Below, in pieces: positions 156-22,820 of a stretch of DNA of 32,073 bases. Made by a program: the position numbers and the translations under genes. Source of the DNA: Octopus sinensis (taxonomy: Eukaryota); contig NW_021832660.1 of the NCBI RefSeq assembly GCF_006345805.1, positions 1-32,073 on the forward strand, written 5' to 3'. The notes below the pieces were generated by a model, which worked only from the letters and a program-made list of their open reading frames with translations, was not told the DNA's origin and did not search any database. Each line of letters begins with the position of its first letter. The stretch's first letter is position 1.

Positions 156-625
156 ACTTTTGCTGGTTTTGCTCATTAGACTGCGACCATGCTTGGGCAC
201 CGCCTTGAAAAAGTTTTAGTCGAGTGAACCGACCTCTGTACATACGTATTTTTAAAAACCTGGTACTTATTCTATCGGGCTGTTTTGTCGAACCGCTCGG
301 TTACGAGAACGTAAACATACCAATACCGGTTTTCAAGTGGTGGTGGTGGGCGGGACAGACACAGACACAAGGACAAACACACGCGCGCGCGCGCGCACAC
401 ACACACACACACAGACTCACACTAAACACACATACACACACATATACACGCATACACACATACGACGGGCGTCTTTCAGTTTCGTCTACCAAATCCACTC
501 ACAAGGTTTTGAACTTTCCGAAGCCATAGTAGATAACATTCGCCCAAGCTGCTACGCAGTGGGACTGAACCCGGAATCATGTGGTTGGGAAGCAAACTTC
601 TTACCACACAACCACAGCTGCGTCT
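156..625 (-). mobile_element. tRNA-derived SINE, 'family A' (tRNA-like head, internal microsatellite, conserved 3' body)
   Basis: The minus strand reads agacgcagctgtggttgtgtggtaagaagtttgcttcccaacc...gggttcagtcccactgcg (A/B-box-like head), then an internal (TG)n, then gatagaataagtaccagg. It is homologous to copies at 16712-17143 and 25209-25630. Confidence 0.8.
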
Positions 626-769
626 ACAATACATTACTTACAACAACTTACATTCTACGTTCAAATCCTGTTAGAATCTACCTTGAATTCCGTCCGTCTA
701 GGATTGTGAAAATAAGCACCTGCTACTCAGCGTGATTGACTTAACTATATTCTTTCCCGATAAAGTTAT

Positions 770-960
770 GACAACCGGTGTAAGTTTGTATACGTACCCG
801 TAACTTAACGGTTCGACAAAAGAGGTCGATAGAATAAGTATCAGACATTAAAAAAACTGAAGTACTTGGGTCGATTCCTTCGACTAAACTCTTCACGTCG
901 ATGCACCAGCATGACCGCAATTCAATAACTGAAGCAAGTAAAATATAGAAAAGAAGAATA
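770..960 (+). mobile_element. 3' half of a family A SINE
   Basis: Contains cgtaacttaacggttcg...gatagaataagta...gggtcgattccttcgactaaa...cagcatgaccgcaattcaataactgaagcaagtaaaa, which matches the 3' body of other family A copies. Confidence 0.7.
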
Positions 961-1532
961 TAGATGAGATGCAAACGTGATTTCTTTGAAATCTTCGGCA
1001 AAATCGTATCATATCGTTTTGATGGTCGGTTCAACGTCGACTCAGTAACAGTGGCTGCTTAATCCCAGGTCAGTTCAGAGTGAGAGTTCACATAATCAAA
1101 AGACATTCAAGTAGGGACCTAGAATATAGTTTACAAGGGTGTCCCTGGTATATGATTCGGAAACTTAAATAAGTTTGCCCAACATGTATTACATATGCCC
1201 AACATATAGATATGTTGGGCAAACTTATTTAAGTTTCCGAATCATATACCAGGGACACCCTTGTAAACTATATTCTAGGTCCCTACTTGAATGTCTTTTG
1301 GTTATGTGAACTCTCACTCTGAACTGACCTGGGATTAAGCAGCCACTGTTACTGAGTCGACGTTGAACCGACCATCAAAACGATATGATACGATTTTGCC
1401 GAAGATTTCAAAGAAATCACGTTTGCATCTCATCTATATTCTTCTTTTCTATATTTTACTTGCTTCAGTTATTGAATTGCGGTCATGCTGGTGCATCGAC
1501 TTGAAGAGTTTAGTCGAAGGAATCAACCCAAG
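865..1532. repeat. Long near-perfect inverted repeat (321-bp arms, 26-nt spacer)
   Basis: 865-1185 is the reverse complement of 1212-1532 with no indels and about 3 substitutions by eye. The ORF track shows mirror ORFs at 741-1034(-) and 1363-1548(+). Confidence 0.95.
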
Positions 1533-1814
1533 CTTGATGTTCTACTAGCGGACTGTCTACAAACACCTTATTTCAAATCGTAAACCTGTTTAAATTTTGC
1601 CATGGTGGCCATGTTGCATATTTCATTGAGTTAGCTTATAAGGATACTTTTATGATCGAAACAGAGAAAAGAAAAGAAAAAAAAAATGGAAGAAATTTTT
1701 TTTTGCTTATTTGAAAAGTTCCATTGTTCACGGTTTTAAAGTTTCTGTCCGATTACATATTCACAAAGCTTAGACCGTGGTCGTTCGTACAATGATATAC
1801 AATTTCTTTTCACG

Positions 1815-1887
1815 CACACATACATACATACATGGATACATACATATATGTATGTATGTGTATGTAGGATGTATGTATGAGTGTATG

Positions 1888-1919
<32 letters not shown>

Positions 1920-1989
1920 TACATAAATATATATACATTTATACGTGTATATATGTATGATATATATGTATGTATGTATTATATATATA

Positions 1990-2044
<55 letters not shown>

Positions 2045-2102
2045 ACATATATACATAAATATATATACATATATGTATATATGTATATATATATATATGT
2101 AT

Positions 2103-2168
<66 letters not shown>

Positions 2169-2310
2169 TACATAAATATATATACATTTAACGTGTATAT
2201 ATGTAGATATATTATGTAATATATATATATATATTATATATATTATATATATACACATATATATATATACACACATATAACACATAATATGCATATATGT
2301 ATATGGATAT
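1815..2310. repeat. Compound (TA)n/(TATG)n microsatellite
   Basis: Directly visible. Confidence 0.95.
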
Positions 2311-2584
2311 TAATTTAAAAAGTGGCAGTGCATATATTTACATACATATGTACATTCATATAACTTATGTGTGCGTGGGTGAAGGAGAAAGAGAAGGAGA
2401 GGGAGGGGGAGTTTATATGTGTGTGTGAGTATGTGTTTACATATATACATCTGTCTGTGCCGGCAGCATGGCTGTATATCTCTCTATTAAGTTGCGTTTG
2501 GTATTGTGTACGAAATTGTGTATTTGCGCACAGGAATACGCAAATACACGCAGACATGTATATTTACATTTGTGCGCGCGTGTT

Positions 2585-2634
<50 letters not shown>

Positions 2635-2848
2635 TGTGTGTGTGTATGTGTGTGTGTGCGTGTGTGCGCGTACTGATGTGTAATAAGTCTAATATTAACT
2701 ATGTATGAATTTATGTGTTTATATATGCACGTATTTATATGAGAAATATGGCTGCGTGAACTCTGCTGTTTGTTCGTGTATTCGCGTATTTCCGTGTCCA
2801 TTAAGTTAGTTTAGGTGTAACAGCTGTGTGTGTGTGTTTACGTGCGTG

Positions 2849-2884
<36 letters not shown>

Positions 2885-3105
2885 CATACACACATGTATT
2901 CATATGTGCTTTTCACATATGCTTGCATATTTGCTTAGACCAAGAATGCAAATATTAAAAGTTGGGTTCATTCTTGACAGCACACCGGCTCTTAACAATG
3001 GCAACGGTAGCTACAGCAGTATAATCAAATACAAGCAAAACCACCGCTGCCATCACAACCGCCGCCGCCACCACCAACGCCATAGCAACAACAATAACAA
3101 CTGTT

Positions 3106-3915: not shown

Positions 3916-4109
3916 ACCATACAACTGCTTCCTCCCTAAACAAGTCCTAATTTCATCAGAAGTAATCATTTCAAGGCCATCAGTTCATAACAATGCGAAA
4001 ATCGATGACATCGACCTAAATAGTTAACTTTAATAGGTTTCGGCCAGTATAGGTACAGGCCATGTCTAACTCAACAGCACCACGTTGACTTTTATTAAAA
4101 AAATATTTT

Positions 4110-4265
4110 TTGACTTATTTCAGTTATTTGACCTGCGGCCATGCTGAAGCACCGCATTTAGTCGAACGAATCTACCTCGGGACTTATTCTTTGTAAGCCT
4201 ACTACTAATACTACCTTCCCCTTTTGCCGAACCGCTAAGTTACGGGACGTAAACACACCAACATC
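4110..4265 (-). mobile_element. Family A SINE 3' fragment
   Basis: ctgcggccatgctgaagcaccgc...tttagtcgaa...ttttgccgaaccgctaagttacggg is the reverse complement of the family A 3' body. Confidence 0.7.
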
Positions 4266-4549
4266 AGTTCTATATTTAAAAATAGGGTCGGGGGCGCTGA
4301 GGGTATTATGTAACTATGAGGGGGCCCAAAAAGTTTGAGAACCTCTGATCTAGGGGATCTCATTAATTGTGATCTTTGTCTTTTAAGCTGAGAGCCTACA
4401 CAAATATATCACATATATATGCGCGCACGCTCATACACTCACACACGCACCCACACAAACCCCCTACACACACTCACATGCAGACACACACATACACATG
4501 CACACATACATACGCACCCATATACACAACCCTCCCACACGCACACACA

Positions 4550-6718: not shown

Positions 6719-6860
6719 CGCAGGCGTAGCTATGTGGTAATAAGTTTGCTTCACAACCATAAGGTTTCTGGTACAATCTCACCGCGTCTTCTGCTACAGC
6801 CACGTGTTGACCAAAGCCTCGTGAGTGGATTTTGGTAAACGGAAACTGAAAGAAGCCGTC
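6719..6860 (+). mobile_element. Family A SINE 5' half (interrupted by PLE insertions)
   Basis: cgcaggcgtagctatgtggtaataagtttgcttcacaacc...gtgagtggattttggtaaacggaaactgaaagaagccgtc matches the head of the 16712 copy up to its internal microsatellite. Confidence 0.8.
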
Positions 6861-6895
<35 letters not shown>

Positions 6896-7149
6896 TGTAT
6901 GTATGTATGTATGTATGTATGTATGTATGTATGTATATACATATATATATATATATAATGTGTGTATATATATATATATATATATAGTAATGTTTATATG
7001 CCAACAGAGCATGGCAGTCTTATATAGGACGGTGTTACTGTTGTTATAGCCCCAGGAAAGCATATTTTCCAGTTGGCTATCGACACACAGCCTGTGCCCT
7101 TATAGCATTTCCAAGGGAGCTCATTGCCCCATCTCTAGCCTTATGTGAT

Positions 7150-7397: not shown

Positions 7398-8749
7398 TTG
7401 CTCCTAAGGGCATTGGACTTCGCCAAGCAGTATGTCAACATCGATAGCTCGGAAATTGATATTATTATGCATGCGAGGAAATCGCTTCTTTTTTTCGAGG
7501 ATTCCACCTGGATTAAGAAGACTGAGGATTCTCTTTTCGATGTACCGATGGGGGCATACGACGGGCCTGAGTTATGTATGCTCATAGGAGCCTTTATTCT
7601 CCATAATCTAAAAATAGAATTCCCATTTATAGATGCAGGTTTATATAGGGATGACGGCCTTATAGCCACGCATAATCTAAACGGCCATGAATCAGATAGA
7701 CTTAGGAAGGACCTTATTGCTTTCTTTCAAAGGATGGGCTTACGGGTTACAATAGATGCTAACCTGAATAGTGTAGATTTTTTAGACGTAAATTTTAATG
7801 TAAGGTCGGATAGATTTAAACCTTTCCGTAAGCCCAATGAAAAGCTATCGTATATTAGCGAAGATTCGAACCATCCACTAGTTATCCTTAGGAACTTAGT
7901 CAGCAATGTAGGTAAAAGAATATCTTCAATTTCTTCGGACGAGGCAGCATTCCATAATGCTGCACCTTATTACGATAGCGCATTAAAGAATAGTGGATTC
8001 TCTGAGAAGATCCAGTTCAACCAGCTTAATGCTGGTAATAATGCTGCACGAAGAACTAGGACCAGGAAAGTTTTGTGGTTCAACCCGGCTTTCAATTTGG
8101 CCGTAAAGACTAATATAGGTAAGGAATTTTTGAGATTAGTCTCTAAGCATTTTAAGCGGGTCATAAATTCTATAGGATATTTAATAGAAGAACCCTGAAG
8201 GTTAGCTATTCTTGTTGCAGAAATTTCGCCTCTTACATTAGCCAGCATAATAGGAATCTGATTGAGATTAGACATGGTGCCGAGCCCATTAAGAAATGCA
8301 ATTTCAAAAACGAAAACTCCTGTCCGTTAGAAGGGAAATGTCTAGTGAAAGGAGTAGTTTATAGAGCCAATGTGCAAATAGAAGGCTCATCGGAATACAA
8401 GACATACACAGGGGCTTCAGAAAATTCATTTAAAACACGATTTTATTCACATAAAAATTCATTTAAATACCCAGAGAATAGGAAGAGGACCAGCCTAGCA
8501 AAATATGTCTGGGAACTAAAAGAAAAGGAAACCCCACCTTTCAACGTGACATGGAGTATTCTGGACAGAGCGGCACCATACTGGCATGGAGCACACAGAA
8601 CTAATTTTAAATGCAAGCTTTGCCTATTAGAAAAACTGTACGTTTTATTCAAAGACAATAATTCTTTGAATCAAAGAAGTGAGCTAATGAACTTATGTAG
8701 ACACGCAACCAAATTTAAAATGTCAAATATAAATATACCATTTGGATAG
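7398..8749 (+). pseudogene. PLE reverse transcriptase-GIY-YIG endonuclease polyprotein, N-terminally truncated, single frameshift at ~8160
   Basis: RT motifs FDVPMGAYDGPELC, GLYRDDGL, VDFLDV, FRKPN, SNHP and linker RKVLWFNP..VKTNIGKEFL. Restoring one base at aagcgggtcat gives HKFYRIFNRRTLKVSYSCC...CNF..SCPLEGKCL, in frame with ORF 8345-8749 (VVYRA...YTGASENSFKTRF..H, CKLCLLEK, LNQRSEL..CRH). Confidence 0.92.
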
Positions 8750-9884
8750 AGTATATATTTTGTATTTTTGATTTTTGAAATTTTGATTTTGACTCTTGAA
8801 CTAGTATGTAAACGCGACGATGGATTTGTTTCGCGCTATGTAGATTTCATTCCGTATAGCAAAGTCTTATATTTCTACATATACATTAGGAAAAACCTTC
8901 GGCTTTGTTTATTTCATCTTATTGTATTGTATAGGATTACCTTGATTTTTAATTTATAGATGATCCAAAATAGGGTGTTATATTTTATATGTCTTTCGTA
9001 TATTTTTCATTATTGCACTCACCTTTTTTTAAAAAGCAATGTTGTCAATTTTGATATAAATATGTGTATAGCCATGGATATGTATTTGTAAGCATGCGTA
9101 TCTGTGTATGTGTAAGTGAGCGTATGTTTGTGCTTAAGCACACACATACACGACTGTATGTGTATGTATCCATTCGAACTTGTGTATTTGTATACTTGTC
9201 TCCATATATGTCAATAACGCGGTTACACAGCTTGTTACATAATTTTTCTTATTTCGTTTTTTTCCCCACCCCTCCTTTTTCTTTTTTTCTTCCCCTTCTT
9301 CGTTCCTTTTTCTCTCTCTTCCTTTCTTTTGTTTTTTTTCTCTAACTGATACTGATACAACTTTACGTCCCCCTTACTTAAGCTTTACTCAGTAAATGAG
9401 AAACGCTACATCGATGATTTTAACTTGCGTGCGAGATAGATTGCGTACATATATGTATGCATGCATTTATGTGTATATTTTAGATTTATGTGTATATTTT
9501 AGATTTATATTTATACGTCTGTATATGTATGGCGTTTGCACGCATCCTTCTGTGTATGTTGATATATATATGTACACTTTAATATGAATATGTATTGCAG
9601 TGTAATATTTATAATAAGTTTTAATTTCTATGCATTAATTATATTTTCTTCATTAACGTCAATATGTATTTTATTCAATGTAAGGTTTTTTCCTCGAATT
9701 TTATAATTTTTATAATTTTTATAATTTTTTTTATATATATATGCATATATTTTTGAGCTCTTTTTTTGTTTATCGCTCGAAGATTGACCGTTATTTCTAA
9801 AGGGCCAATCAAACAAGTCCATTTTTTTTAAAGGTGTAGCGTTTGTAAGAGTCTGGATTGAATTGATATATCGGTTCCATTCTA

Positions 9885-9936
9885 GCAAAAACTGTCTGAT
9901 GAACGGCAACGAGAAACTCAGAGTAACAGATTTTGT
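9885..9936 (+). ncRNA. Minimal type I hammerhead ribozyme in the PLE 3' region (pLTR); helix II weakened
   Basis: GCAAAAACUGU-CUGAUGA-ACG(GCAA)CGA-GAAAC-UCAGA-GUA-ACAGAUUUUGU. Helix I pairs at 10 of 11 positions; cores are at 9896-9902 and 9913-9917, GUA at 9923-9925. Confidence 0.75.
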
Positions 9937-9989
9937 TGAATTTTCTGCTGCTTTAAATAAAGTATATATTGTATATATATATATAATAT

Positions 9990-10021
<32 letters not shown>

Positions 10022-10071
10022 CAAATATATGTGTGTGTGGTGTGTGTGTGTATGTATGTATATATATATAT

Positions 10072-10290
10072 GTCCTTGTTTCTGTGCTTGTCCCCCGACC
10101 ACCGATTGACAACTGATGTTGGTGTGTTTATGCTCCCGTAAGATTAGTAGTTCGGCAAAAGAGCCCGATAGAATAAGTACCAAGCTTTAGAAAAAGTACG
10201 GGGGTCGATTCATTCGACTAAAATTCTCCAAGATGATGCCCCAGCATAACTGCAGTCTAATATTTGGAACAAGTAAAAGAAAAAAAGATA
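10072..10290 (+). mobile_element. Family A SINE 3' half
   Basis: cttgtccccc...ttgacaactgatgttggtgtgtttatg...gatagaataagtacc...ggggtcgattcattcgactaaaa...ccccagcat matches the part of family A after the microsatellite. Confidence 0.8.
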
Positions 10291-10327
10291 TGAGATACAA
10301 AAGATAATTTAATCAAGCTAATATATA

Positions 10328-10408
10328 TAGCAATCCCTCGACTATCCTGGGTGTTACGTTCCAAAAACTCTTGCGATAGGTGAACCGCGATATAGCGAGG
10401 GATTACTG
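10328..10408. mobile_element. Tiny Tigger/pogo-like MITE (~81 bp)
   Basis: Imperfect TIRs tagcaatccctcg... and ...cgagggattactg, flanked by TA on both sides. Confidence 0.55.
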
Positions 10409-10739
10409 TATTAATTGAGAATCCAAAGGTTTCGTTTACGGCAGCACGACAATGTTAATAATGATTTCTTCTGAATGATCTGTTGCCGACATCTGGGCAT
10501 TTGCATTCTCAATAATCATCACTATGATCGGGTATATTGGCTAATACTGTCCGGAGTACATTATTCCAGAAAGTCCAGCCTCTTGACTTGGAACAAGCTG
10601 TCGATCCGGTGAACTGTAAGAGAAATAACAGAAGGGCCCAAATTGAAATGGAAGCTTTTACCTCGGCACTCAGGATTGCCCTGGCCTAATCTCGGCAGAT
10701 ATAGGACTCTTGATACAGTAAGAAAATAAAGACAGATTA

Positions 10740-11132
10740 GATTCAGTCCTATGTAGAGAACGGGTAATTTGAGATGCTTCAATGATGCTTTGAGAACTGG
10801 CTACGGTCCACAGACCTCTAGTTCATCTCTGGTGCTAAGCACAGACGAGGTCGCAAACTTAACGGACAAAAAGACGACGCTTAAAAAACGGTGGAGAGCA
10901 TTTACACAGTCTTCTGAACGAGCACTTTACTGTCAATAAGTCAACAGTAGTTCGTTTGACACAGGTGACTCATGTTACTCTCTGAGGACGGAGTCAGTCA
11001 GGCCCTGGGTGCCTTTAGACCTAACACCATTCTAATCGGGTTCTTCAAGATCAGTGACCCATGTCTTATCTTATGCCTCTCAAACTTCTTTCACTGACAA
11101 CAAAAGCAGGAGGTAATTCCACCTGAGTAGGA
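10740..11132 (+). pseudogene. Degenerate RTE-clade LINE fragment (endonuclease-RT linker)
   Basis: Manual translation gives FNDALRTGYGPQTSSSSLVLSTDEVANLTDKKTTLKKRW...GFFKISDPCLILCLSNFFH*QQKQEVIPPE. This resembles the RTE linker (FYDALK.VYGP...LLS.DG..LTDK..IL.RW...E.IP.E). Confidence 0.65.
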
Positions 11133-12372
11133 AGAAATCGTTTGCGCGGTGGACGGCACAAACATCACAAGAATACTCACAAGGCTTTCGTAAAAGACTT
11201 CTGCATTGATTCAGAATTTATGGAAAAACTTTGTTACAACCACAACCACCAGAAGCATTAACTATTGAACGGTGGTTCGCCACCTTTACCAAAGGGCGTT
11301 TTACAATCACCCTCTAACACGCATGTTTTTCAAAACAAAAAGCAGATTACTGCAATGAAATTGAAACTAATCTCGTATAGTGGTTAATTATCCATATTTT
11401 CTTATACGATTCCAACGAACCTGTCCCTCTATTTAGATATTTGCACGGCCTTACACCACCTATGTTAAATGTATATGAAAAATCTCCATTCTGTTTCTGG
11501 ATGAAATTCTTATTATTGCGTTTTTTTTTTAAAGTATGTAAAGGTGTTTTTGTTATCTTCAGTCATGTGCGAGTCTGTGTTATGATGACAATTAGATAGG
11601 TGATCGAAGAAAGTGAAAGATTTGTATCAGATGGTCGTGTTAAATATATGTAAAAAGCAAGAGATGAAATATGGGGGAAAAGAGTTATTGCGTCTGGTTT
11701 GGTGAGGTATGTGAGTAGTGTTGTGGTTTGTTTAAAAGATTTTGAAAAATCTAGTCACGATGTTGATAAGTCAGTCCACGTATTATTTGCATTATATGAA
11801 AAAATAAGAGGTTTTAGAGTATTTTGAAGTCTCACTGAATTATAGAGTCTGTGAGAATGTGAAAGTGCAATAGGTTAGCCATGTAGTCTAGTGGGAAGGT
11901 TAGGTGAAATGGTATTGATATAGGAAGTTTTAATATGCACATTAGCATTTCGTTAAATCAGCCATAAATTTATATGGTAAATACATATATTGACAGAACG
12001 ATTTAGCCAAACCATCGAGCGATTGAGTATTCTCTGCTTACGGGTCTATGAGTGATAGACGAATCTAGTCTAGTGATCCTAGATTCACTCATAGGGCGGT
12101 TATCTCCCCTCTCAGTGTATATATATTGTGCGCTTCATATAACATTAAGAAATTTTAACTCTTATTTCTAACAATATAGATACTTCAGCTCCATCATTCA
12201 TAATTAGTGACGATTAGATACTTTCTTTATGGCCTTATATTGCGCCAAACTGTTTATATATATATATAATTAATAATATCAAAGGGTAATCTGAAATATT
12301 AGAAATTTCCATTACAAGTGGCCTAGCATGTAAAAATTTAGTCAATAGACTATATTTTATTCATACGAATAC

Positions 12373-12509
12373 AGTGTATATTTAAACACATAAGAGGTAT
12401 CCATAATAGGACTAGCTACACGCTAGAGTGGACAGTTAAGAATTTAACTGTCCTCTCTAGCGTGTAGGTAGTCCTATGATGGATACCTCTTAAGTGCTTA
12501 AATGTACAC

Positions 12510-12510
<1 letters not shown>
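12373..12510. repeat. Imperfect inverted repeat/hairpin (67-bp arms, 4-nt loop)
   Basis: agtgtatatttaaacacataagaggtatcc...ggacagttaa-gaat-ttaactgtcc...ggatacctcttaagtgcttaaatgtacact; about 6 mismatches and no indels. Confidence 0.9.
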
Positions 12511-12540
<30 letters not shown>

Positions 12541-13624
12541 ATATATATACATATATATATACATATATATACATATATATATATATACATATATACATAG
12601 ATACCTATATATATCTATATATATAATATATGATATATATATATATATATTATATAATACAATATATATACATACACACACATACACATCCACACACCTA
12701 TATATGTATGCAAATGTATGTATATGCCTATGTGTGTATGTTTATTATATTAGTATGTTTCGTGTTCTAGTTTTATTTTGAAAGACCACAATTTTCATTT
12801 AACATTCTTCCCCATTAGTTTGCAAATATCATTTCCGATATTTCTACATAGAACACAAATAGTCATGTATCATAGAAGATCAATCCCGTTCTAATTAGGT
12901 GTGTCTCATCAGATTAGGTATAGTCTGATTCTCGATTTTTCTGTAGTATGTATGCTATTTAAATTATTTCTGCATATTATGGTTGATGATATCTTTTAGT
13001 TCCATAAAAGTGATTTTAATACCCCTAATGTTGTATTGCAGAGTTTCAAGGGTTTGTACATTATATTTACAAAAGTTGTGTGAGGGTGAAACATTTATTC
13101 GTTTAAAATATGTTCTGTGCAAATCTGTAACTTGATGAAGTAATATTTACATTCTATTGTTATTGTATTTTTGCTGTCTCTGTTATTTTCTTCGTAAATT
13201 CGTGTATTTGTCTGAATTATTTGTAAACGTTGTTGTTTTGTAGTATTTGTGTGAGTATGTGAAAATTTCGTAAGGTACATCTAAATTTTGCTTTAGTTTG
13301 AGAGACTCATTTTATGCAGAGTTGTTGCTTGGGCCATTCACTTACAAAGTTCACACGTCTGAGAAATATTTGTGTGTTGGTTAAAACAATATTCAAACGG
13401 CATTCTAACAGTTTCAATTGTATTTTCTTTACTGACGTTCTATGTTTAGCATTAGTTTATCCTGTAGTTTGACTAGTTTTGAAGACGATAGGTTAGTATT
13501 TGAGGAAAATTTGGCTGCAGTTTCTTAGCTGTTGGAGCTTCGTAGCTGGTTCACATTGGTGTTAGTTGTGTTGAGAGGTAATGAGTCATGTGACCTTTAC
13601 TGAATGATACAGTTAGTAGTAATA

Positions 13625-13845
13625 AGGCGGCGAGCTCTAGCATACTGGAAACGTTAGCATACTGAGCAAAATGCATAGCAGCATTTCCTCGGCCTTTACG
13701 TTCGGAGTTCAAATTCCGCCGGGGTCGACTTTGCCTTTCATCCTTTCGGGGTTGATAAAATAAGTACCAGTTGAATATTGGGGTCGGTGTAATCGACCAG
13801 CCTCCTCCCCCGAAATTGCTGGTCTTGTGCCAAAACTCGAAACTT
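13625..13845 (+). mobile_element. tRNA-derived SINE, 'family B' monomer
   Basis: Head ggcggcgagct...gttagca, B box gagttcaaattcc, and central domain gtcgactttgcctttcatcctttcggggttgataaaataagtaccag. Confidence 0.85.
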
Positions 13846-14989
13846 ATATAATTAGTAGTAGTTTTGGTGGTGGTATGGTTTCAGTTGTAATGATGGTGGT
13901 GGTATTGGTGATGGTGGAATTAAGATTATTATAGTGATGATGATGCGAAGTGATATTGATAGTGGTGATGATGATGGTGGTGGTGGTTGTGGTAGTGATA
14001 GTGGTGATGATGATGATGATGATGATGATGATGGTTGTGATGGATATAATAATAGTCAAGATGATCGTATTTGTGGTTGTGGCAGTGGTGATATTGGATA
14101 TAGTAGTAAGTGTTGTGGTGGTGATGGTAATAATGTAGCTGCAGTGGTTGTTATGATATTGGCAAGGATACTGTTGGTGGTCGTAATGGTGGAGACGATG
14201 GCGGTAGTGCTGGTTGGTGCGTCGGTGGTGGCATTGGTTTTGGCGGTCTCGGTAGCTGAGGTGACGGTTGTGGTAGCCGTAGTATAGTGTCTATGGTTGG
14301 TGATGGTGATGGCTGTGGTGGTGTTCGTAGGTGAAGAAGTAGTGGTGGTGGTGGTAGTAATGTTGGTTTGGGTTGGAGTCGAAGTGGTTGTAGTGGCGGT
14401 GCTGGTTTGGGCGGGGCTAGTGGTGGTACTGGTGGTGATGGTGGTGGCAGGGATACTGAGGTGGTTGGTTTGTAATGGTAGGGGTAGACGAGAATGTGTT
14501 AGATTTGCTTCACCGATTAATCGGGTAGCGCTAAATCAGTTATCGCTTCAATCAATAAGCAGCAACACGTACAAGATCGATTGACAACAAGCTTCGATGG
14601 TTAGTAATCCAGTGGCTGATTTCGTTAAAGTGGTCTCGTTGTTACCATCTACTTCACCGCCACAACAACCACTGCTGCCGCCGCCGCCGCCACCGCCACC
14701 ACCTCCACCACCACCACCACCACCACCACCACCACCACCGCCGCCGCCGCCACCACCACCACCACCACCACCACCTCAACCACTACCGCCGCCGCCTCCG
14801 CCGCCGCCGTCACCGCCTTCCTCGCCGTCTCCGCCGCCATATACGTCGTCGTTGCGACTGTTTAGCCTCAGATCAGACTCGATCCAGCAGACCTGTATGT
14901 CCCACCAGTGGCTATTCCGTCATTCTTGTACGTCTGAATCTACATTACCCGGTGTATTCTTCTTCGTTTAAGATAGTTAAGGTGTGATT

Positions 14990-16420
14990 TAAAGAAGATT
15001 TCGGCTGATAGTTGTAGCAAGTCGAACAAACATGTAAATGTTACGTGTTGTTTTATAGACAGTGGTTTGGCAGAATCGTTGAAGTGTAGGCCAAAATTAC
15101 TTTCAGTGTTTTTATGTTTTGAGTTCAAATCCTACTAAAGTCAAGTTTATTTTTCACTCATCTGTGGTATATAAAATAAACTACCAGTAAAATGCGGATG
15201 CTAGTCAAATCAGCTGACATTGTCGTCTTATTAGTTTCTTCAAACAAAAGACTAAGGCTGAAATTTCCGAAAACGTTTCTGTTTCGTACAGCTTCTACTT
15301 GTGTAAACCCTGGAATTATGGTGTAAACCTTGGTGGTGACGAAATTATTGCGATGAACAGTAATCCCTAGATACTTGTAGTTTAATCTAACTTTTTCATG
15401 AACTGGACTGTAGCCTACAATTAAAGGCATTCTTGTATTGTGCACTCTGTTCTGTTAGTGCTATTTGGAATTACATTATCTATTGTGTCTTTTTATTTTA
15501 TTTAATACTATGAGTTGTGATATGAGACAGATCTGGTGGTAATTTCTGGACAGTGATTTCTAAACGCTGACTCGATTCATCAGATATTCTTTTCTATTCT
15601 AGGCACAAGGTCCAAAATTTTTGAGGAAGAAGCCAGTCGATTAGGTTGACCCTAGTACGCAACTGGTATTTATTTTATCGACCCCGAAAGGATGAAAGGC
15701 AAAGTCGATCTCGGCGGTATTTGAACTCAGAACGTAAAGACAAACGAAATACCTATTTCTTTACTACCCACAAGGGGCTAAACACAGAGAGGACAAACAA
15801 GGACAGGCAAACGGATTAAGGCGATTTTATAGACCCCAGTGCGTAACTGGTATTTATTTAATACACCCCGAAAGGATGAAAGACAAAGTCGACCTCGGCG
15901 GAATTTGAACTTAGAACATAGCGGCAGACGAAATACCGCTAAGCATTTCGCCCGACGTACTAACGTTTCTTGCCAGCTCGCCGCCTTCGATTCATCAGAT
16001 ATTGTGGTCCATATTGATAAGAGCGATTTGTTGTAAGTGGATGAACTTAGCCAGATAGTGAGATTTCTTAGCTACACCTTGATGGCAGCAGTAATTGATA
16101 GCAACAGAATAATGTAGTCGTGGGTCAATCGTAGCAGATACTTTTAAACTGGCGAGTCGAAAGTTTGATTTCTTTAACAAATCTCTTGTTAAAGTGTCAC
16201 GTACATGAATACGTGTATTTTTGTTTTAGGTGTGTGTGTGTTGTTCGTTTGTCGATCCGGTGTGGAACATCATGACATCATAAATGTGCAGATAGCTATG
16301 CAGCCCAATCTGCGTTCGGAAGAATCTTCGGTAATGTGGATAGAGAATAGAGGCAGTAGTAGTAGATCTGATGACATTTTTCTTTCAAACGTAAGGTATA
16401 CGTGTTGTCACGGTTAGAAC
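14990..16420 (-). pseudogene. Possible heavily decayed PLE remnant, interrupted by a SINE
   Basis: Weak minus-strand peptide resemblances occur in PLE order: RT end (LTFERK..., ~16400), linker (RMPLIVGYSP, ~15430) and GIY-YIG (KHKNTESNFGLHFN, ~15100). No intact catalytic motif is present. Confidence 0.3.
15589..15986 (-). mobile_element. Family B dimeric SINE with a 17-bp TSD
   Basis: Two tandem B-box plus central-domain units, flanked by an exact direct repeat tcgattcatcagatatt at 15572-15588 and 15987-16003. Confidence 0.9.
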
Positions 16421-16711
16421 GCCGTTGATCATAGGTCTCTCAGTCAGAACTAACTCAGAGTTAAACAACAACAATATTATTTCTCAACCTTCGGAGAGCG
16501 AAGAGAAAAATACACGTTATATGATGGTCTACATGCCACGTCTGCTACCGGTATCACGCAACTTAGCTCCAATTTTCTTGTTACACATAAGATGGCATAA
16601 ATTTCTGTGTTAAAATTTGTATATTTTCATAAATGTATCAGAAATTTAAGGGAAGCGTTCCCAGTTGAGGACTGAAACCGTCTTTCAGTTTCAAATAAAC
16701 TAGAATTAATA

Positions 16712-17143
16712 GCTCAGGAGTGACTCTGTGGTAAGTAGCTTACTTACCAACCACATGGTCCCGCGTTCATTCCCACTGCATGGCACTATGGGCAAGTGTC
16801 TTCTACTATAGCCTCGGGCCGACCAAAGCCCTGTGAGTGGATTTGGTAGGTGGAAACTGAAAGAAGCCCATATACATATGTGTGTATGTACGTATGTATG
16901 TATGTATGTATGTATGTATGTATGTATGTATGTATGTATGTGTGTATATGTTTGTGTGTTTGTTTGTCCCCCCAACATCGCTTGACAACCGATGGTGGTG
17001 TGTTTACGTCCCTGTAACTTAGCGATAGAATAAGTCCTAGGCTTACAGAGAATAAGTCCTGTGGTCGATTTGCTTGACTAAAGGCGGTACTCAAACATCG
17101 CCGCAGTCAGATGACTGAAACAATTAAAAGAGAGTGAAAGAGA
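16712..17143 (+). mobile_element. Family A SINE, full length, internal (TATG)n
   Basis: tRNA-like head, gggcaagtgtcttctactatagcc, internal microsatellite, and a 3' body ending gactgaaacaattaaaagagag. Confidence 0.85.
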
Positions 17144-17545
17144 GCTCCGTAAGTAAGTCCGGCACTAATTAACTAAAACAAAATTAACAGTAAAACTAGG
17201 CATATTGCTGTTTTTGTTGCTTAGCTCTAGGTCAAATTTGGTCGTGTAGAACAATGATCGATAACATTCCTTGGACAACAATGACTATCCTGCTTTTCAT
17301 TTTCGAGTGCATTGTATTTCGAGTTACGTTATTCCGGTGTATTCTCTGTCTCTTTTCTGAGATGGCAGGGTGCAATCAGAAGGATATTTGGCTGATACTT
17401 CTAGCGCGTCGAATGATCGTTTGGGGAATCCTTGAAACTTTACGACAGTCCAATCGAATGAACCGATTTGTTATTGATTTAAAACAAGTAACTGATTTAC
17501 GTTATTAACATTCGACAGATATTTGTTCTCATCTTGTTTGTTGTT

Positions 17546-17591
17546 AACACAACGTTTCGGCTGATATACTCTCCAGCCTTCTTCAGGTGTC
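17546..17591 (-). ncRNA. Minimal type I hammerhead ribozyme lacking a helix III loop
   Basis: GACAC-CUGAAGA-A-GGCUGG(AGAGUAUA)UCAGCC-GAAAC-GUU-GUGUU. Helix I is 5 bp, helix II is 6 bp, and helix III is replaced by the palindrome AACGUU. Confidence 0.8.
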
Positions 17592-17646
17592 TTGGGGAAA
17601 TTTCGAACCTGGGTTCTCATTCCTAAGGTATTTTTCGATGTTATTA

Positions 17647-17690
<44 letters not shown>

Positions 17691-17695
17691 GTTCA

Positions 17696-17768
17696 GGGCA
17701 CTGCTTGGATTCGAACTCAGAATCTTGGGGTTAGTAGCCCGCGCTCTTAACCGCTATGCGATATGCCC
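17696..17768 (-). promoter_or_regulatory. tRNA-like head with Pol III A/B boxes (pseudo-tRNA, not a tRNA gene)
   Basis: 73-nt gggcatatcgcatagcggttaagagcgcgggctactaaccccaagattctgagttcgaatccaagcagtgccc, with an acceptor-like gggca/tgccc pair, A-box-like tcgcatagcgg and B box gagttcgaatcc. Confidence 0.7.
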
Positions 17769-18411
17769 GTGGGCATATCCGTCGAATGTAAATAATGTAA
17801 ATAATGTACATAATTTCTCATCTCTTAAATATAGGATTAACTGATTTGTTAATTATTCTATCGACCAAAGGAAGGGCTGGGAGGTGGGGGTCGGGGGCGC
17901 GGAGATAAAATGCAAAGCCTTGTTTGGGAGGAAAACTGAACTCGCAACACCAAAATTAGAAGATATTAGATGTACCACAAAACATTTTAGGCGGACGTTC
18001 TGCCATTTTATTTCCATTCCATTATACAGAACAACAAAATAAATAAATAAAAGAATATTAATAAAAACTGCTAGCAGAATAATAATAATAATAATAAATA
18101 ATAATAATAATAATAATCTGTGTCTCAGTTCCCGGATGTCATTGTGATTTTCACTTCCATTCGAATAACATGTTCATTGGTATTAATCACCACTTCCCGT
18201 TCTTCAAAAAAAAAAAACATCCCCGCCATCTCTTTCACTTTCTCTCCCTTTCATTACAACACCTTCCCCTCCATCTTAGCCTCGTTCTAGATTTTTTTTC
18301 TTTTTCTTTTTTCCTCCCTTTCTTGCCCGCCATTTTACCTCCGTTCCCAATCCACATCCAACAATGTCCGTTATCTTGTCAGTAATTAATTTTCACTTAA
18401 ATAACATCGGC

Positions 18412-18575
18412 TTTTCTTCTTCTTCTTCTTCTTCTTCATCTTCTTCTTCATCTTCTTCTTCATCTTCTTCTTCATCTTCTTCTTCATCTTCTTCTTCTTC
18501 TTCTTCTTCTTCTTCTTCTTCTTCTTCTTCTTCTTCTTCTTCTTCTTCTTCTTCTTCTTCTTCTTCTTCTTCTTC
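18412..18575. repeat. (CTT)n microsatellite
   Basis: Directly visible. Confidence 0.95.
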
Positions 18576-18843
18576 CACTTCTTTCGCCTCAGCATCCCTT
18601 TTAGATAATCACTGCAAATCCTTCTGCCTGTTCGCCCTGCCTCTAACTATTACTCTCCTCCGTCCTCCGTCCCCTTTCTTAATCTCTCATATAATACTCT
18701 CACTTCCTCTCTCGGTTTTCACCCCCCCTCCTTTTCTCACCCTCTCATTACATTCTAACAACACCAACAACATCAGCACTAACATTATAACCACCGACGC
18801 CTTCACTTTCAATCATTTACTATTTTAAAAATCTGTACCATTT

Positions 18844-18875
<32 letters not shown>

Positions 18876-19067
18876 GTCCATTCAATATTCCTCACAAGCT
18901 TTTCTCTTTTGATTATTTCCCTTGCTCGATATCCCACCCGCTTTGTTTTTGCCTCTCACTCATCAGGACATCCTCTTCTCCTTCCTCCTCGTCAACTTTT
19001 TTTTTGTTTTTGCCATCGTCGTCATCGTCATCACGAACATCTCATCAACAGCAACATCAGTAGCAGT

Positions 19068-19098
<31 letters not shown>

Positions 19099-19160
19099 TA
19101 CTCTCCTTGTCCTCCGCCTCCTGCTATAATTTTATCTCCTACTCTCCCTCCTCCACCTTC

Positions 19161-19194
<34 letters not shown>

Positions 19195-19341
19195 GAATAG
19201 CAAAATCAACACGAATATTTGATCATCACCTTCATCTTAAGAACATGGTCATTATCATGTCTTCTTCTTCTTCTTTCTTCTCTATCATAATAATCATTAT
19301 TAGCACCGCTGCCATCCTCCTCTTTCTCATCGCAGTCGTTC

Positions 19342-19372
<31 letters not shown>

Positions 19373-19737
19373 AAACATCATCGTCATCAGTTTTCTATTT
19401 CAAAAGAAGAAATCATTATGGGCTGCTACCTCATCACTCCCACTGCCCCTCTAACTAATTAATAACATTAAAAACCACCACCACCACCACCACCACCACC
19501 ACCACCACCACAGCCACCGTTGCCACCGCCACAGCCGCCGCCACCGCAAGAACCACCACCACCACCACCACCACCACTACCATCATTAAAACAACGGCAT
19601 GGAGTTTTGCTCACCTCTCCCACCTAACTGGTCTTACATCCAACTCTGTTGCTCTCTTTTAATCACCCTCTCTTCCTTCCTTTCTTCGTCTCGTTCATTA
19701 TCTCACTCCCCTACTCACTCTCCCTTCCATCTTCCCT

Positions 19738-19822
<85 letters not shown>

Positions 19823-19953
19823 CCTCTGTCGTTCTCTTTCTCTTAGGAGACCACGTCACTCTCCTATTTTCCAATTTCCCTGTTCTTACACCACCACCGC
19901 CACCACCACCACGTCTGTCTATCTGTCTATCTGTCTGTTTGTCTGTCTGTCTG

Positions 19954-19991
<38 letters not shown>

Positions 19992-20710
19992 TTCTCTCCC
20001 ACCGATGCCGTCGCCTCATAAATATTCATAAAAACCAGCAAAGCTGAAAATGAGAATGGAGTGTTATTTTCCAGCAAATCTCTCCTGTTCTCAGTCTCTC
20101 TCAATTACCGACCCCCGCCACCACCACCACCACCACCACCACCACCACCACCAACACCACCACCACCATCTTATATTTTCTCTATTACTATCTCCTCTCT
20201 TTTTCACCTCTCTCATGGTTTCTTCTCTCACTCTTTCTCTTACTTACTCTCTCTCTCTCTCTCTCTCTATCTCTATCTCTCTATCTTCAGCTTCTTCACG
20301 CTCAGTCGAACTTCTCATTCGGGGAAATCATTCAAACGAAGCGTGACCATTTATTTTAGCTACGCACAAATCTTTCGGAACAACAACTCTCTTACATTGC
20401 AGACACACATTCGCGCCGTTTTAGTAGTGCACGTTCTGTGCCACTGGTCGCTGATCTTAGCCCCTCGCTCTCCCACCATCCCATCCATCACACCACAACC
20501 ACCGCCCATTACAACACAACCACCAGCACCATTAACAACAACAACAACAACAACAACAGCAGCAGCAGCAGCAGCAGCAGCACTTTCTCCGCAACTACCA
20601 CCAATTATAATACTTACTACCACCATCGCCGCCGTTGCTGCTCCCGTCTATGCGGTTACACGGCCTGCTAAAAATAGCAGTTAACATCTAGCTCAGTTTC
20701 CACTCTAGAG

Positions 20711-20790
20711 CAGTGCTCCGTAACCGGTATGCCGTGGCACACTAGTATACCACGAGACGGTGCTAGGTGTGCCGCAGTGTAACCTAAATT
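20711..20790 (+). mobile_element. Possible hAT/Charlie-type terminal fragment
   Basis: cagtgctccgtaaccggtatgccgtggcacactagt...ggtgtgccgc resembles Charlie-type termini and subterminal GTGCCG repeats. No partner end is visible. Confidence 0.4.
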
Positions 20791-20814
20791 AAATGTTTTC
20801 CCTTATACTTTTAG

Positions 20815-20898
20815 TATTTGAACTCAGAACGTAACGGCAGACGAAATACGGCTAAGCATTTCGCCCGGCGTGCTAACGTTTCTGCCAGCTCGCCGCCC
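20815..20898 (-). mobile_element. Family B SINE head fragment
   Basis: Reverse complement of ggcggcgagctggcagaaacgttagcacgccgggcgaaatgcttag...ctgagttcaaa. Confidence 0.8.
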
Positions 20899-21135
20899 TA
20901 GCGAAAATTATATATTGTTCATATAAAAATTTAGAAACTCCAAGTTACCTTTTCTTTTTTTTTTTTTTTCGGAACAGTGAATCTCGAAGCAGATAGAACT
21001 ATGAATAAAAGCGTGTAAATTTTGAGCTAAAAACATCCTTCAACGAACTATCATTTGACGAAATCACTATAATACAAACTTAGAATGAGATAATTGTTTA
21101 CCAGTTTACCATAATACGACATTAAAATGAGAAAA

Positions 21136-21560
21136 GGCGGCGAGCTGGCAGAAACGTTAGCAAGCCGGGCGAAATACTTAGCGATATTTCGAATGCCGTT
21201 ACGTCCTGAGTTCAAATTTCGCCGAGGTCGACTTTGCCTTTCATCCTTTCGGGGTCGATAAATTAAGTACCAGTTACGCACTGGGTTCGATGTAATCGAC
21301 TTAATCCCTTTGTCTGTCCTTGTTTGTCCCCTCCTTGTTTAGCCCCTTGTGGGCTATAAAGAAATAAGAAACGTTAGCAAGCCGGGCGAAATGCTTAGCG
21401 GTATTTCGTCTGTCTTTACGTTCTGAGTTCAAATTCCGCCGAGGTTGACTTTGCCTTTCTTCCTTTCGAGGTAGATAAATTGAGTACCAGTTGCGTACTG
21501 AGGTCGATCTATTCGACTGGCCTTCTCCCCCAGAATTTCGGGCCTTATGCCTTGGGGAGA
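21136..21560 (+). mobile_element. Family B dimeric SINE with a 15-bp TSD (enclosing a nested MITE)
   Basis: Two tandem units; direct repeat attaaaatgagaaaa at 21121-21135 and 21999-22013. Confidence 0.9.
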
Positions 21561-21566
21561 AAATAT

Positions 21567-21992
21567 GGATCTTTTCGGTTTGAACGGCAGTTTTTAAAAA
21601 TAATTTCCACGTAAGTAAACACTTTTAAACTTCGTATACTGGAAGAATGTGTTTATAAAACATCTTTTTCTCTTGGATTTATTGAGAAAATTCTATAGTT
21701 TGTAAGATATTTGTTGTTGTTTTTTTCTTCAATTTCTGCAATTTCAACCAATCAATGACGTCTATTGAGGTGAAAAACATTCTGTGCCGTATGAATATGT
21801 CCCTCGTTTAAGAAACAGATTGGGTTTATTTACATTTCTGAAGAAGAAAAGATACCCTTCCCCTCACCCCTAACCCTAACCCTAACCCTAAAACAGATTG
21901 AAATGCAATAGATTGATACTAGGGTCATAATTATGGGTGACAATTTCATATGACATCGCTTGAAAATATTACCGTTCAAACCGAAAAGATCC
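21567..21992. mobile_element. MITE (426 bp) with 21-bp perfect TIRs and internal (CCCTAA)4
   Basis: TIRs ggatcttttcggtttgaacgg (21567-21587) and ccgttcaaaccgaaaagatcc (21972-21992); 8-bp near-TSD gaaaatat/aaaaatat. Confidence 0.9.
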
Positions 21993-22116
21993 AAAAATAT
22001 TAAAATGAGAAAATCGTTTTCGTACCTAAATAGAAATAGGAGATATTTATTTCATTTATTACCCATGGAGGACAATTAAGATTCCGAGATGCAAATTCAC
22101 TACTTATACCTCCACT

Positions 22117-22430
22117 GGCACCGGCACTCCGTCGGTTGCAGCGATGAGGATTCCAGTCAATCCGATCAACAGAACAGCTTCCTCGTGATATTAACGTGCA
22201 GGTGGCTGAGCACTCCACAGACACGTGTACCCTTAATGTAGTCCTCATGAGATTCAGTGTGACACGTTTGGCCCTTTGAAATACAGGTACTACTCATTTT
22301 TGCCAGCTGAATAGATTGGAGCAACGTGAAATAAAGTGTCTTGCTCAAGGACACAACATGTTGCCGGGAATCGAACTTATGACCTTACGATATTAAGTTA
22401 AATACCCTAACCACTAAACCACGTGCCTTC
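22117..22430 (-). mobile_element. tRNA-derived SINE, 'family D' (CORE-like centre)
   Basis: Head aaggcacgtggtttagtggttaggg...agttcgattccc and gtgtccttgagcaagacactt. Its tail is shared with 31265-31460. Confidence 0.8.
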
Positions 22431-22587
22431 ACCATATCTCTACTGTCACCACCACTATCACCACAAACCACAAACTAGTTCATCACCACTAGTATTATGA
22501 ATACTACAGCTGTACTACTACAGCCAATACTATAAGGCACCGTTATTGTCATCAGTGACATATCAGTCACAAGCACCAGTTCTAGTA

Positions 22588-22820
22588 CAGGGTGTTCAAA
22601 AAATCTTTCCGCAGTGGATTTTTTCATCCTGCGCATCACCATGGCGCTACTTCAAGAGCTTTTCGGTGAACGAATTATTTCGAAGGGACTATGGCCACCA
22701 AGATCACCTGATTTAACACCGCCAGATTTTTTTTTCTGGGGAGCAAGTGAAGAACCAGTGTAGAAGAAAGGCTCGAAAACCATGAAATACTTACTACGGA
22801 GAGACTTTGTGAACACCCTG
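22588..22820 (+). mobile_element. Internally deleted Tc1/mariner-superfamily element (233 bp)
   Basis: TIRs cagggtgttcaaaaaatct / agactttgtgaacaccctg, TA flanks, and an internal transposase remnant ELFGERIISKGLWPPRSPDLTPPDFFFWG. Confidence 0.88.

What the first reader, a model, noticed from the sequence alone, without database searches (positions are those of the whole stretch)
17489..17847. Candidate Penelope-mobilised SINE: tRNA Pol III head + hammerhead ribozyme + inverted pLTR-like end
Seen, reading the minus strand: a 73-nt tRNA-like head with A/B boxes (17768-17696), (AAT)n, ~45 nt of unique sequence, a minimal HHR (17591-17546) and a 3' end at ~17496. Just upstream of the head, in the opposite orientation, is a copy of that 3' end (17775-17801 vs 17496-17522, 24/27 identical). 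This copy carries ~35 extra nt that the sense copy lacks. The join is a fold-back palindrome, gatatgccc-gt-gggcatatc (17760-17779). The unit is flanked by taactgattt (17489-17498 and 17838-17847; the left copy overlaps the element end). Established: minimal HHRs, an inverted upstream partial pLTR and a short tail extension are hallmarks of PLE insertions, whereas SINEs normally parasitise LINEs. Schistosoma SM-alpha is a precedent for a Pol III repeat carrying an HHR. Inference: this is a Pol III-transcribed, self-cleaving, non-autonomous element copied by PLE RT/GIY-YIG machinery. I cannot verify here whether it has been described in cephalopods.
Basis: partly seen in the sequence, partly recalled or inferred. 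Interest (0 to 1): 0.85.

Follow-up and report, generated by a model that had tools for sequence, protein, structure and literature searches.

The report
Penelope retrotransposon with captured tRNA promoter
The supposed SINE is a short copy of the end repeat of a protein-coding Penelope-type jumping gene that carries a tRNA-like segment, and that segment likely serves as the element's own RNA polymerase III promoter, which would be unusual for a retrotransposon that encodes its own enzymes.

Summary
The anatomy is real, but the unit is not a separate SINE. It is the pseudo-LTR of an autonomous Penelope/Poseidon-type element (RT plus GIY-YIG). The tRNA-like head follows the ORF end in 23 of 29 loci chosen by protein alone. 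The hammerhead and tail are the first ~55 codons of that ORF: 39 of 42 residues in the window match a 391-aa frame that runs on toward the RT. Inverted partners, one-sided tails (50 of 51 pairs) and ~10-14-nt duplications (38 of 69 pairs) are ordinary PLE marks. The unusual part: 48 of 86 head-bearing copies begin within 15 nt of the head's 5' edge, while only 3 of the 23 that pass it stop in the next 90 nt. A and B boxes sit at tRNA numbering. No TTTT run is shared by copies along the ORF, whereas 0 of 46 related ORFs lack one. Best reading (0.6): a captured tRNA promoter sets the RNA's 5' end, and internal priming in the upstream repeat yields SINE-like short copies. Pol III activity and self-cleavage are untested; unstranded RNA reads did not decide it.

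The parts
17696..17768 (-). tRNA-like segment of the PLE untranslated region (A box ~17761-17751, B box ~17716-17707); candidate Pol III internal promoter
   Evidence: follows the ORF end by ~35 nt in 23 of 29 protein-selected loci; not called by ARAGORN or Rfam
17769..17775 (-). 5' leader of the sense copy: upstream arm of the element's native hairpin, where most copies begin
17760..17779 (.). palindromic junction of the inverted and sense copies (native hairpin extended by fold-back or microhomology)
   Evidence: the same joint appears in reads (joint 562-3042)
17641..17693 (-). (AAT)n tract in the untranslated region, variable in length between copies
17495..17620 (-). first 42 codons of the PLE ORF (ATG at 17620-17618); short 3' end without tail
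   Evidence: 39 of 42 residues match the 391-aa frame in L117
17546..17591 (-). minimal type I hammerhead motif inside the ORF start; predicted cut 17551/17550
   Evidence: same core with different complementary helices in 17 matches from related PLE loci
17775..17837 (+). inverted partner: end of the body plus the ~33-nt PLE tail (ORF codons ~33-55)
17489..17498 (+). target-site duplication, copy at the sense 3' end (overlaps the element end)
17838..17847 (+). target-site duplication, copy beyond the inverted tail

Best explanation
[quoted passage not shown] Shown: the element's order is RT/GIY-YIG ORF, stop, ~35 nt, tRNA-like head, (AAT)n, ATG, hammerhead, tail, rest of the ORF. Inferred: RNA starts about 6-8 nt before the head and runs into the ORF. 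The element's own protein would nick AT-rich DNA and start reverse transcription internally at one of two sites ~30 nt apart in the ORF start, as shown for the anole element PAc. Priming in the upstream repeat would run off the RNA's 5' end after ~300 nt and give the head-to-tail 'SINE-like' copies, often folding back at the native hairpin or joining an inverted partner. Priming in the downstream repeat would give ORF-containing, 5'-truncated copies. The hammerhead is predicted to cut only as a dimer or with protein help and may not be needed for insertion.
For: Head after ORF end in 23 of 29 protein-selected loci. 551-aa frame with DKG, RT and GIY-YIG-like motifs, 42% identical to a protein with RVT_1 and GIY-YIG hits. 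The body is the ORF start. 48 of 86 head copies start at -8..+7; of 23 that pass, 3 stop in the next 90 nt (nine calls corrected by eye). 15 of the 48 have unique flanks with no fold-back sign. Ends lie on the 5' side of the hairpin and stop at -7/-8, as run-off predicts; an RNA-structure stall would give ends on the 3' side (inference). L402/L416 is a duplication-flanked insert that starts at the head and ends ~170 nt past the tail inside the ORF. No TTTT position is shared by copies: the highest share is 11 of 159, over ~2.7 kb with coverage >=11; 0 of 46 related ORFs lack TTTT (444 observed, 389 expected). A+B boxes occur in 31 of 86 own copies and 0 of 80 related loci. One long and one short end in 50 of 51 pairs.
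Against: No direct evidence of Pol III transcription. Three unstranded RNA runs from a coded organism showed no start pile-up at the head, and depth broadly followed copy abundance. The TTTT signal is modest: about 3-4 runs expected, P about 0.02-0.05 by my estimate; single copies are not significantly depleted (P 0.37 and 0.47); the terminator length in this animal is unknown. No complete head-ORF-head copy was found among the loci examined. An uncapped, non-polyadenylated 2.9-kb RNA would need a way to be translated. D. virilis Penelope uses a LINE-like TATA-less promoter (PMC2377424, abstract). Rfam and ARAGORN do not call the head.
Confidence: 0.6

Rival explanations
1. The tRNA-like segment plus (AAT)n is a passenger: a small SINE or tRNA retrocopy that landed in the UTR. 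The element uses a Pol II promoter or host read-through, and copies end there because the native hairpin favours fold-back or template switching, or because a Pol II start lies at the same spot.
For: tRNA plus microsatellite looks like a simple SINE. Many junctions are fold-backs at the hairpin (77-155 reads per RNA run at joint 562-3042). Known Penelope has a LINE-like promoter in its pLTR (PMC2377424 abstract). TTTT depletion is borderline.
Against: 15 of 48 boundary copies show no fold-back. None of the 13 head copies lacking a body revealed a second SINE body; three pairs share unrelated downstream repeats. The boxes are canonical while the stems have mismatches.
Confidence: 0.27
2. One reading: an independent non-autonomous Pol III element (a PLE-dependent SINE) whose short copies act as their own masters and borrow the PLE protein.
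For: Short head-to-tail copies far outnumber ORF-bearing ones, have A/B boxes, and could be transcribed.
Against: No position where the majority base differs between 48 head-start and 46 ORF-linked copies; 2 of 9 variable sites reached nominal p<0.05, both transition changes of the CpG-decay type. The ORF start frame is kept. In PAc the RNA needs ORF sequence beyond the priming sites (PMC11167929), which tail-ended copies lack.
Confidence: 0.11
3. Chance nesting of an unrelated tRNA-SINE, a microsatellite and a PLE fragment at this one locus.
For: The window is crowded with repeats.
Against: The same order recurs in 73 of 86 head-selected and 23 of 29 ORF-selected loci.
Confidence: 0.02

Closest known systems
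Penelope/Poseidon-clade PLEs, e.g. Poseidon of Anolis (PAc; PMC11167929, parts 1-2 of 4 read)
   Same: Single RT/GIY-YIG ORF, ORF start overlapping the hammerhead, two 3' ends ~30 nt apart (tail), AT-rich targets, inverted 5' partners.
   Different: The UTR is almost wholly a tRNA-like segment plus (AAT)n, and copy 5' ends pile up at its edge. None of the PLE papers searched mentions this in the passages seen.
Minimal hammerheads in metazoan PLE pLTRs (PMC4209133, passages)
   Same: Unpaired base between 9 and 10.1, G10.1-C11.1, short helix I, palindromic 15.2-16.2.
   Different: Helix II is 5-6 bp against the 7-8 bp given for schistosome motifs; activity not tested here.
TRIMp3 elements: Cassandra, Helenus, Ajax (PMC10886601, passages)
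   Same: A small-RNA-derived Pol III promoter inside a terminal repeat.
   Different: Those are non-autonomous LTR elements of 0.3-1.3 kb; the paper argues their autonomous partners must use Pol II. Here the repeat belongs to a coding PLE.
Schistosome Sm-alpha and animal non-LTR retrozymes (PMC6765202 passages; bioRxiv 10.64898/2026.07.22.740005 part 1 and term search)
   Same: Hammerhead in a dispersed repeat; Pol III promoter in Sm-alpha; proposed pLTR origin for retrozymes.
   Different: Non-coding and tandem. Copies here are mostly single or head-to-head and match a coding element.
Octopus OK, OR1, OR2 SINEs (Ohshima and Okada 1994; only the citation was seen, content recalled)
   Same: Recalled: tRNA-like head of uncertain parent, a trinucleotide tract, and in vitro transcription from genomic DNA.
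   Different: No sequence was available to compare. The short form may already be catalogued as a SINE without the PLE link.

Membership tests
EN+ Penelope-like elements | Single ORF with PLE-type RT followed by C-terminal GIY-YIG | tested here: met
   Frames in L091 and L117; 42% to P0064 with RVT_1 and GIY-YIG hits. The decayed frames themselves gave no Pfam hit and only weak PDB RT hits.
EN+ Penelope-like elements | pLTR with minimal hammerhead | tested here: met
   Motif by sequence; Rfam does not detect it.
EN+ Penelope-like elements | Inverted or tandem 5' partner and a 30-40-nt tail at one end only | tested here: met
   72 of 116 loci have an inverted partner; 50 of 51 classifiable pairs are long/short.
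Penelope/Poseidon clade | No extra Zn-finger motif in the RT-EN linker; phylogenetic placement | tested here: inconclusive
   No CxxC in the linker by eye; no tree with named references was built.
PLE hammerheads | Self-cleavage as a dimer or with protein | not testable with these tools
   No clear pile-up of 5' ends at the cut site.
tRNA-derived SINEs | tRNA-like head with A and B boxes | tested here: met
tRNA-derived SINEs | Non-coding lineage separate from its autonomous partner | tested here: not met
tRNA-derived SINEs | Transcribed by Pol III | not testable with these tools
   Only unstranded short-read RNA was available.
Non-LTR retrozymes | Non-coding head-to-tail arrays of hammerhead units | tested here: not met
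   Loci are mostly single or head-to-head, and the unit is part of a coding element.
Octopus OK SINE | Sequence identity to the published unit | not testable with these tools
   Only the citation was seen; the search found no paper.

The most novel reading that the evidence does not exclude
An autonomous retrotransposon transcribed end to end by RNA polymerase III: a Poseidon-type PLE replaced its promoter with a captured tRNA gene, purged Pol III terminators from its 2.5-kb ORF, and sheds thousands of SINE-like short copies from the same RNA by internal priming, a snapshot of how a PLE-dependent SINE could be born.
Probability: 0.35. Interest if true: 0.85.

Novelty: new variant of a known kind. 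Interest (0 to 1): 0.62.

Why it matters
Pol III promoters in retroelements are taken to be limited to short non-coding parasites; PMC10886601 argues that autonomous partners must use Pol II. A coding PLE with a tRNA-type promoter and a terminator-free ORF would break that rule and raise the question of how such an RNA is translated. The family also gives a genomic test of PLE internal priming: a fixed RNA 5' end plus two priming repeats predicts the mix of short and long copies seen. In practice, some repeats annotated as tRNA-SINEs in such genomes may be PLE end repeats.

Tried and rejected
Rfam found no tRNA or hammerhead in the window or in L065; ARAGORN found none at default settings. ARAGORN at a relaxed threshold gave 10 of 30 own heads but also 140 hits in 80 control loci, so I discard it. 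The first A/B-box pattern failed its positive control (0 of 30); that negative is void and was redone. Only 14 of the 80 control loci clearly include the ORF end plus >=230 nt downstream, so the absence in relatives is weakly tested. The parent tRNA is unresolved: Arg, Thr, Cys and Ala score alike on a six-isotype panel. TTT codon avoidance is only suggestive (3 of 46 controls as low). Run search: no RNA holder listed on record; three raw RNA runs were laid by species label and were unstranded. Pfam on decayed frames was blank. No complete head-ORF-head copy turned up in 30 long loci and 40 of 118 junction loci. Literature searches returned nothing describing a tRNA-bearing autonomous PLE in what I saw; Repbase, Dfam and subscription papers were not searchable, and supplements were not read. 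Look-ups of earlier findings by sequence and by the full word set were empty.

Full report
Observation. Standard detectors are blind to both RNA motifs: ARAGORN finds no tRNA and Rfam finds neither motif at E<=10. The tRNA likeness rests on box residues at tRNA numbering in most of 50 whole-head copies (numbering recalled) and on an alignment score of 59 to this genome's tRNAs against a shuffled maximum of 50. The hammerhead matches the minimal PLE type described in PMC4209133 (passages read), and 17 matches in related PLE loci show the same core with different complementary helices.

It is a large family. A DNA search found 3,386 candidates, and one head 20-mer has 3,719 exact matches with 0 for the reversed control. 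With copies differing at roughly 5-10% of sites, I estimate on the order of 10,000-30,000 head copies.

It belongs to an autonomous element. Seven of the first 60 loci had sequence upstream of the head that reads as a GIY-YIG C-terminus (one of the seven supplied the query). The reciprocal test used that protein alone: in 23 of 29 independent loci the head follows the ORF end directly (counted from the table; the query locus was left out). L091 holds a 551-aa frame with DKG, RT and endonuclease motifs. It had no Pfam hit itself, but it is 42% identical to P0064, which hits GIY-YIG over the cut-off and RVT_1 under it; closer homologs hit RVT_1 over the cut-off. At the other end, L117 holds a 391-aa frame that begins in the 'body' and runs through DKG toward the RT. 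The window's 17620-17495 translates to the same start at 39 of 42 residues. So hammerhead and tail are the first ~55 codons of the ORF, as in the anole element PAc, where the ORF starts in the hammerhead and reverse transcription starts at two internal sites that define the tail (PMC11167929, parts 1-2 of 4 read).

The insertion marks are those of PLEs (PMC8557442, passages). Of 116 loci, 72 have an inverted partner upstream. Of the 51 pairs in which both ends could be classed, 50 have one long and one short end. Duplications of >=10 nt flank 38 of 69 pairs, against 1.5% of 545 controls.

It is not a separate SINE lineage. 73 of 86 head-selected copies carry the body within 500 nt; the sample is the first 90 matches on contig C1 minus 4 duplicates. 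The 13 others run into the microsatellite or into unrelated repeats and show no second body. Head-start copies (48) and ORF-linked copies (46) share the majority base at all aligned positions; 2 of 9 variable sites reach nominal p<0.05. Among 40 of 118 tail-to-ORF junction loci, 8 have a sense head upstream; six of those begin near its 5' edge. One (L402/L416) is bounded by a 12-nt duplication and ends ~170 nt beyond the tail inside the ORF, so its template began at the head and continued into coding sequence.

What is unusual. In one search, 48 of 86 copies start between -8 and +7 of the head, 15 start at +9 to +21, and 23 extend upstream; nine automatic calls were corrected by eye (six with internal deletions moved to 'extends', three moved to the boundary). 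Of the 23, only 3 stop in the next 90 nt. The stop rate per base is thus about 40-fold higher at the boundary. Many boundary copies are fold-backs at a native hairpin, but 15 have unique flanks and no fold-back sign. Ends accumulate up to -7/-8 and then cease, which fits run-off at a fixed RNA end 13-15 nt before the A box (a Pol III-like spacing, recalled). Along ~2.7 kb of ORF and UTR no TTTT position is shared by copies (highest 11 of 159; 60 runs in 139 kb of aligned copies). Synonymous shuffles of two natural frames predict about 1.6 runs per kb, so 3-4 for the ORF, giving P about 0.02-0.05; each single frame is not significant (P 0.37, 0.47). Of 46 related ORFs from metagenome contigs (34 of 80 loci dropped for short or motif-less frames) none lacks TTTT, and they show no depletion (444 observed, 389 expected); three low-T relatives have only one run. 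A corrected A+B-box scan finds 31 of 86 own copies and 0 of 80 related loci, though only 14 of those clearly include the region after the ORF.

RNA. Three raw RNA runs of a coded organism, listed by species label, carry the family in 8,413-11,928 of 11.5-12.9 million reads, equally on both strands, with depth broadly following copy abundance and no start pile-up at the head. The libraries appear unstranded and this fits read-through of embedded copies. It neither supports nor refutes Pol III transcription.

Mechanism. Shown: element order, coding nature of the body, PLE-type ends, the 5' boundary. Inferred: Pol III starts just before the head; the element's protein primes internally; priming in the upstream repeat gives ~300-nt complete run-off copies such as this one, and priming in the downstream repeat gives truncated ORF copies. 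I put this at 0.6. The main rival (0.27) is a passenger tRNA relic with a Pol II promoter and hairpin-driven fold-back; D. virilis Penelope has a LINE-like promoter (PMC2377424, abstract only). An independent SINE gets 0.11. Against the best reading: no direct transcription data, no complete head-ORF-head copy found, and the problem of translating an uncapped RNA. A mixed case is possible, with Pol III making templates and Pol II read-through making protein.

Novelty. PLEs with hammerheads, tails and inversions are known. Pol III promoters in terminal repeats are known for non-autonomous LTR elements (PMC10886601, passages), and Pol III plus hammerhead for schistosome repeats (PMC6765202, passages). 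Nine literature searches gave no description of a tRNA-bearing autonomous PLE in the listings and passages I saw; a recent octopus repeat annotation lists Penelope and SINE families without such detail in the passages read (PMC13282606). Repbase, Dfam and the 1994 octopus SINE paper could not be checked, so the short form may already be named. Verdict: new variant of a known kind, interest 0.62.

Noticed in passing
window 865-1532: A 321-nt, 99% perfect inverted repeat with a 26-nt spacer, overlapping a dispersed repeat at 769-964; it looks like a fold-back insertion and causes the spurious mir-5014 hit.
   Followed up: no
window 157-626, 4103-4271, 6719-6983, 9648-10300, 13618-13860, 15584-15994, 16708-17144, 21126-21809, 30783-31073: Other high-copy dispersed repeats, each matched many times among the fetched loci; probably SINE-type families.
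   Followed up: no
L144:1570-1990 region and L308 downstream of the head: Another short repeat has inserted into the PLE end repeat just after the (AAT)n tract; LINE fragments interrupt the tract in L158, L295, L332 and L342. The tract seems to attract insertions.
   Followed up: partly
P0003 N-terminus: A homolog from another organism (56% identical) has an N-terminal peptide that mirrors the hammerhead-encoded stretch, suggesting the ribozyme-in-ORF overlap is conserved in this clade; no DNA was available.
   Followed up: no
alignment A2, column 59: Copies carry either A or T at the free position 7 of the hammerhead core, which also switches one residue between Glu and Asp.
   Followed up: partly
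L195:393 (loose ends): A second recurrent fold-back point lies in hammerhead helix II, seen in RNA reads and DNA contigs.
   Followed up: no
L125-L128 and L159, L160, L162, L163: Near-identical loci with shared flanks point to segmental duplication or uncollapsed haplotypes; four were dropped from the 5'-end count.
   Followed up: partly
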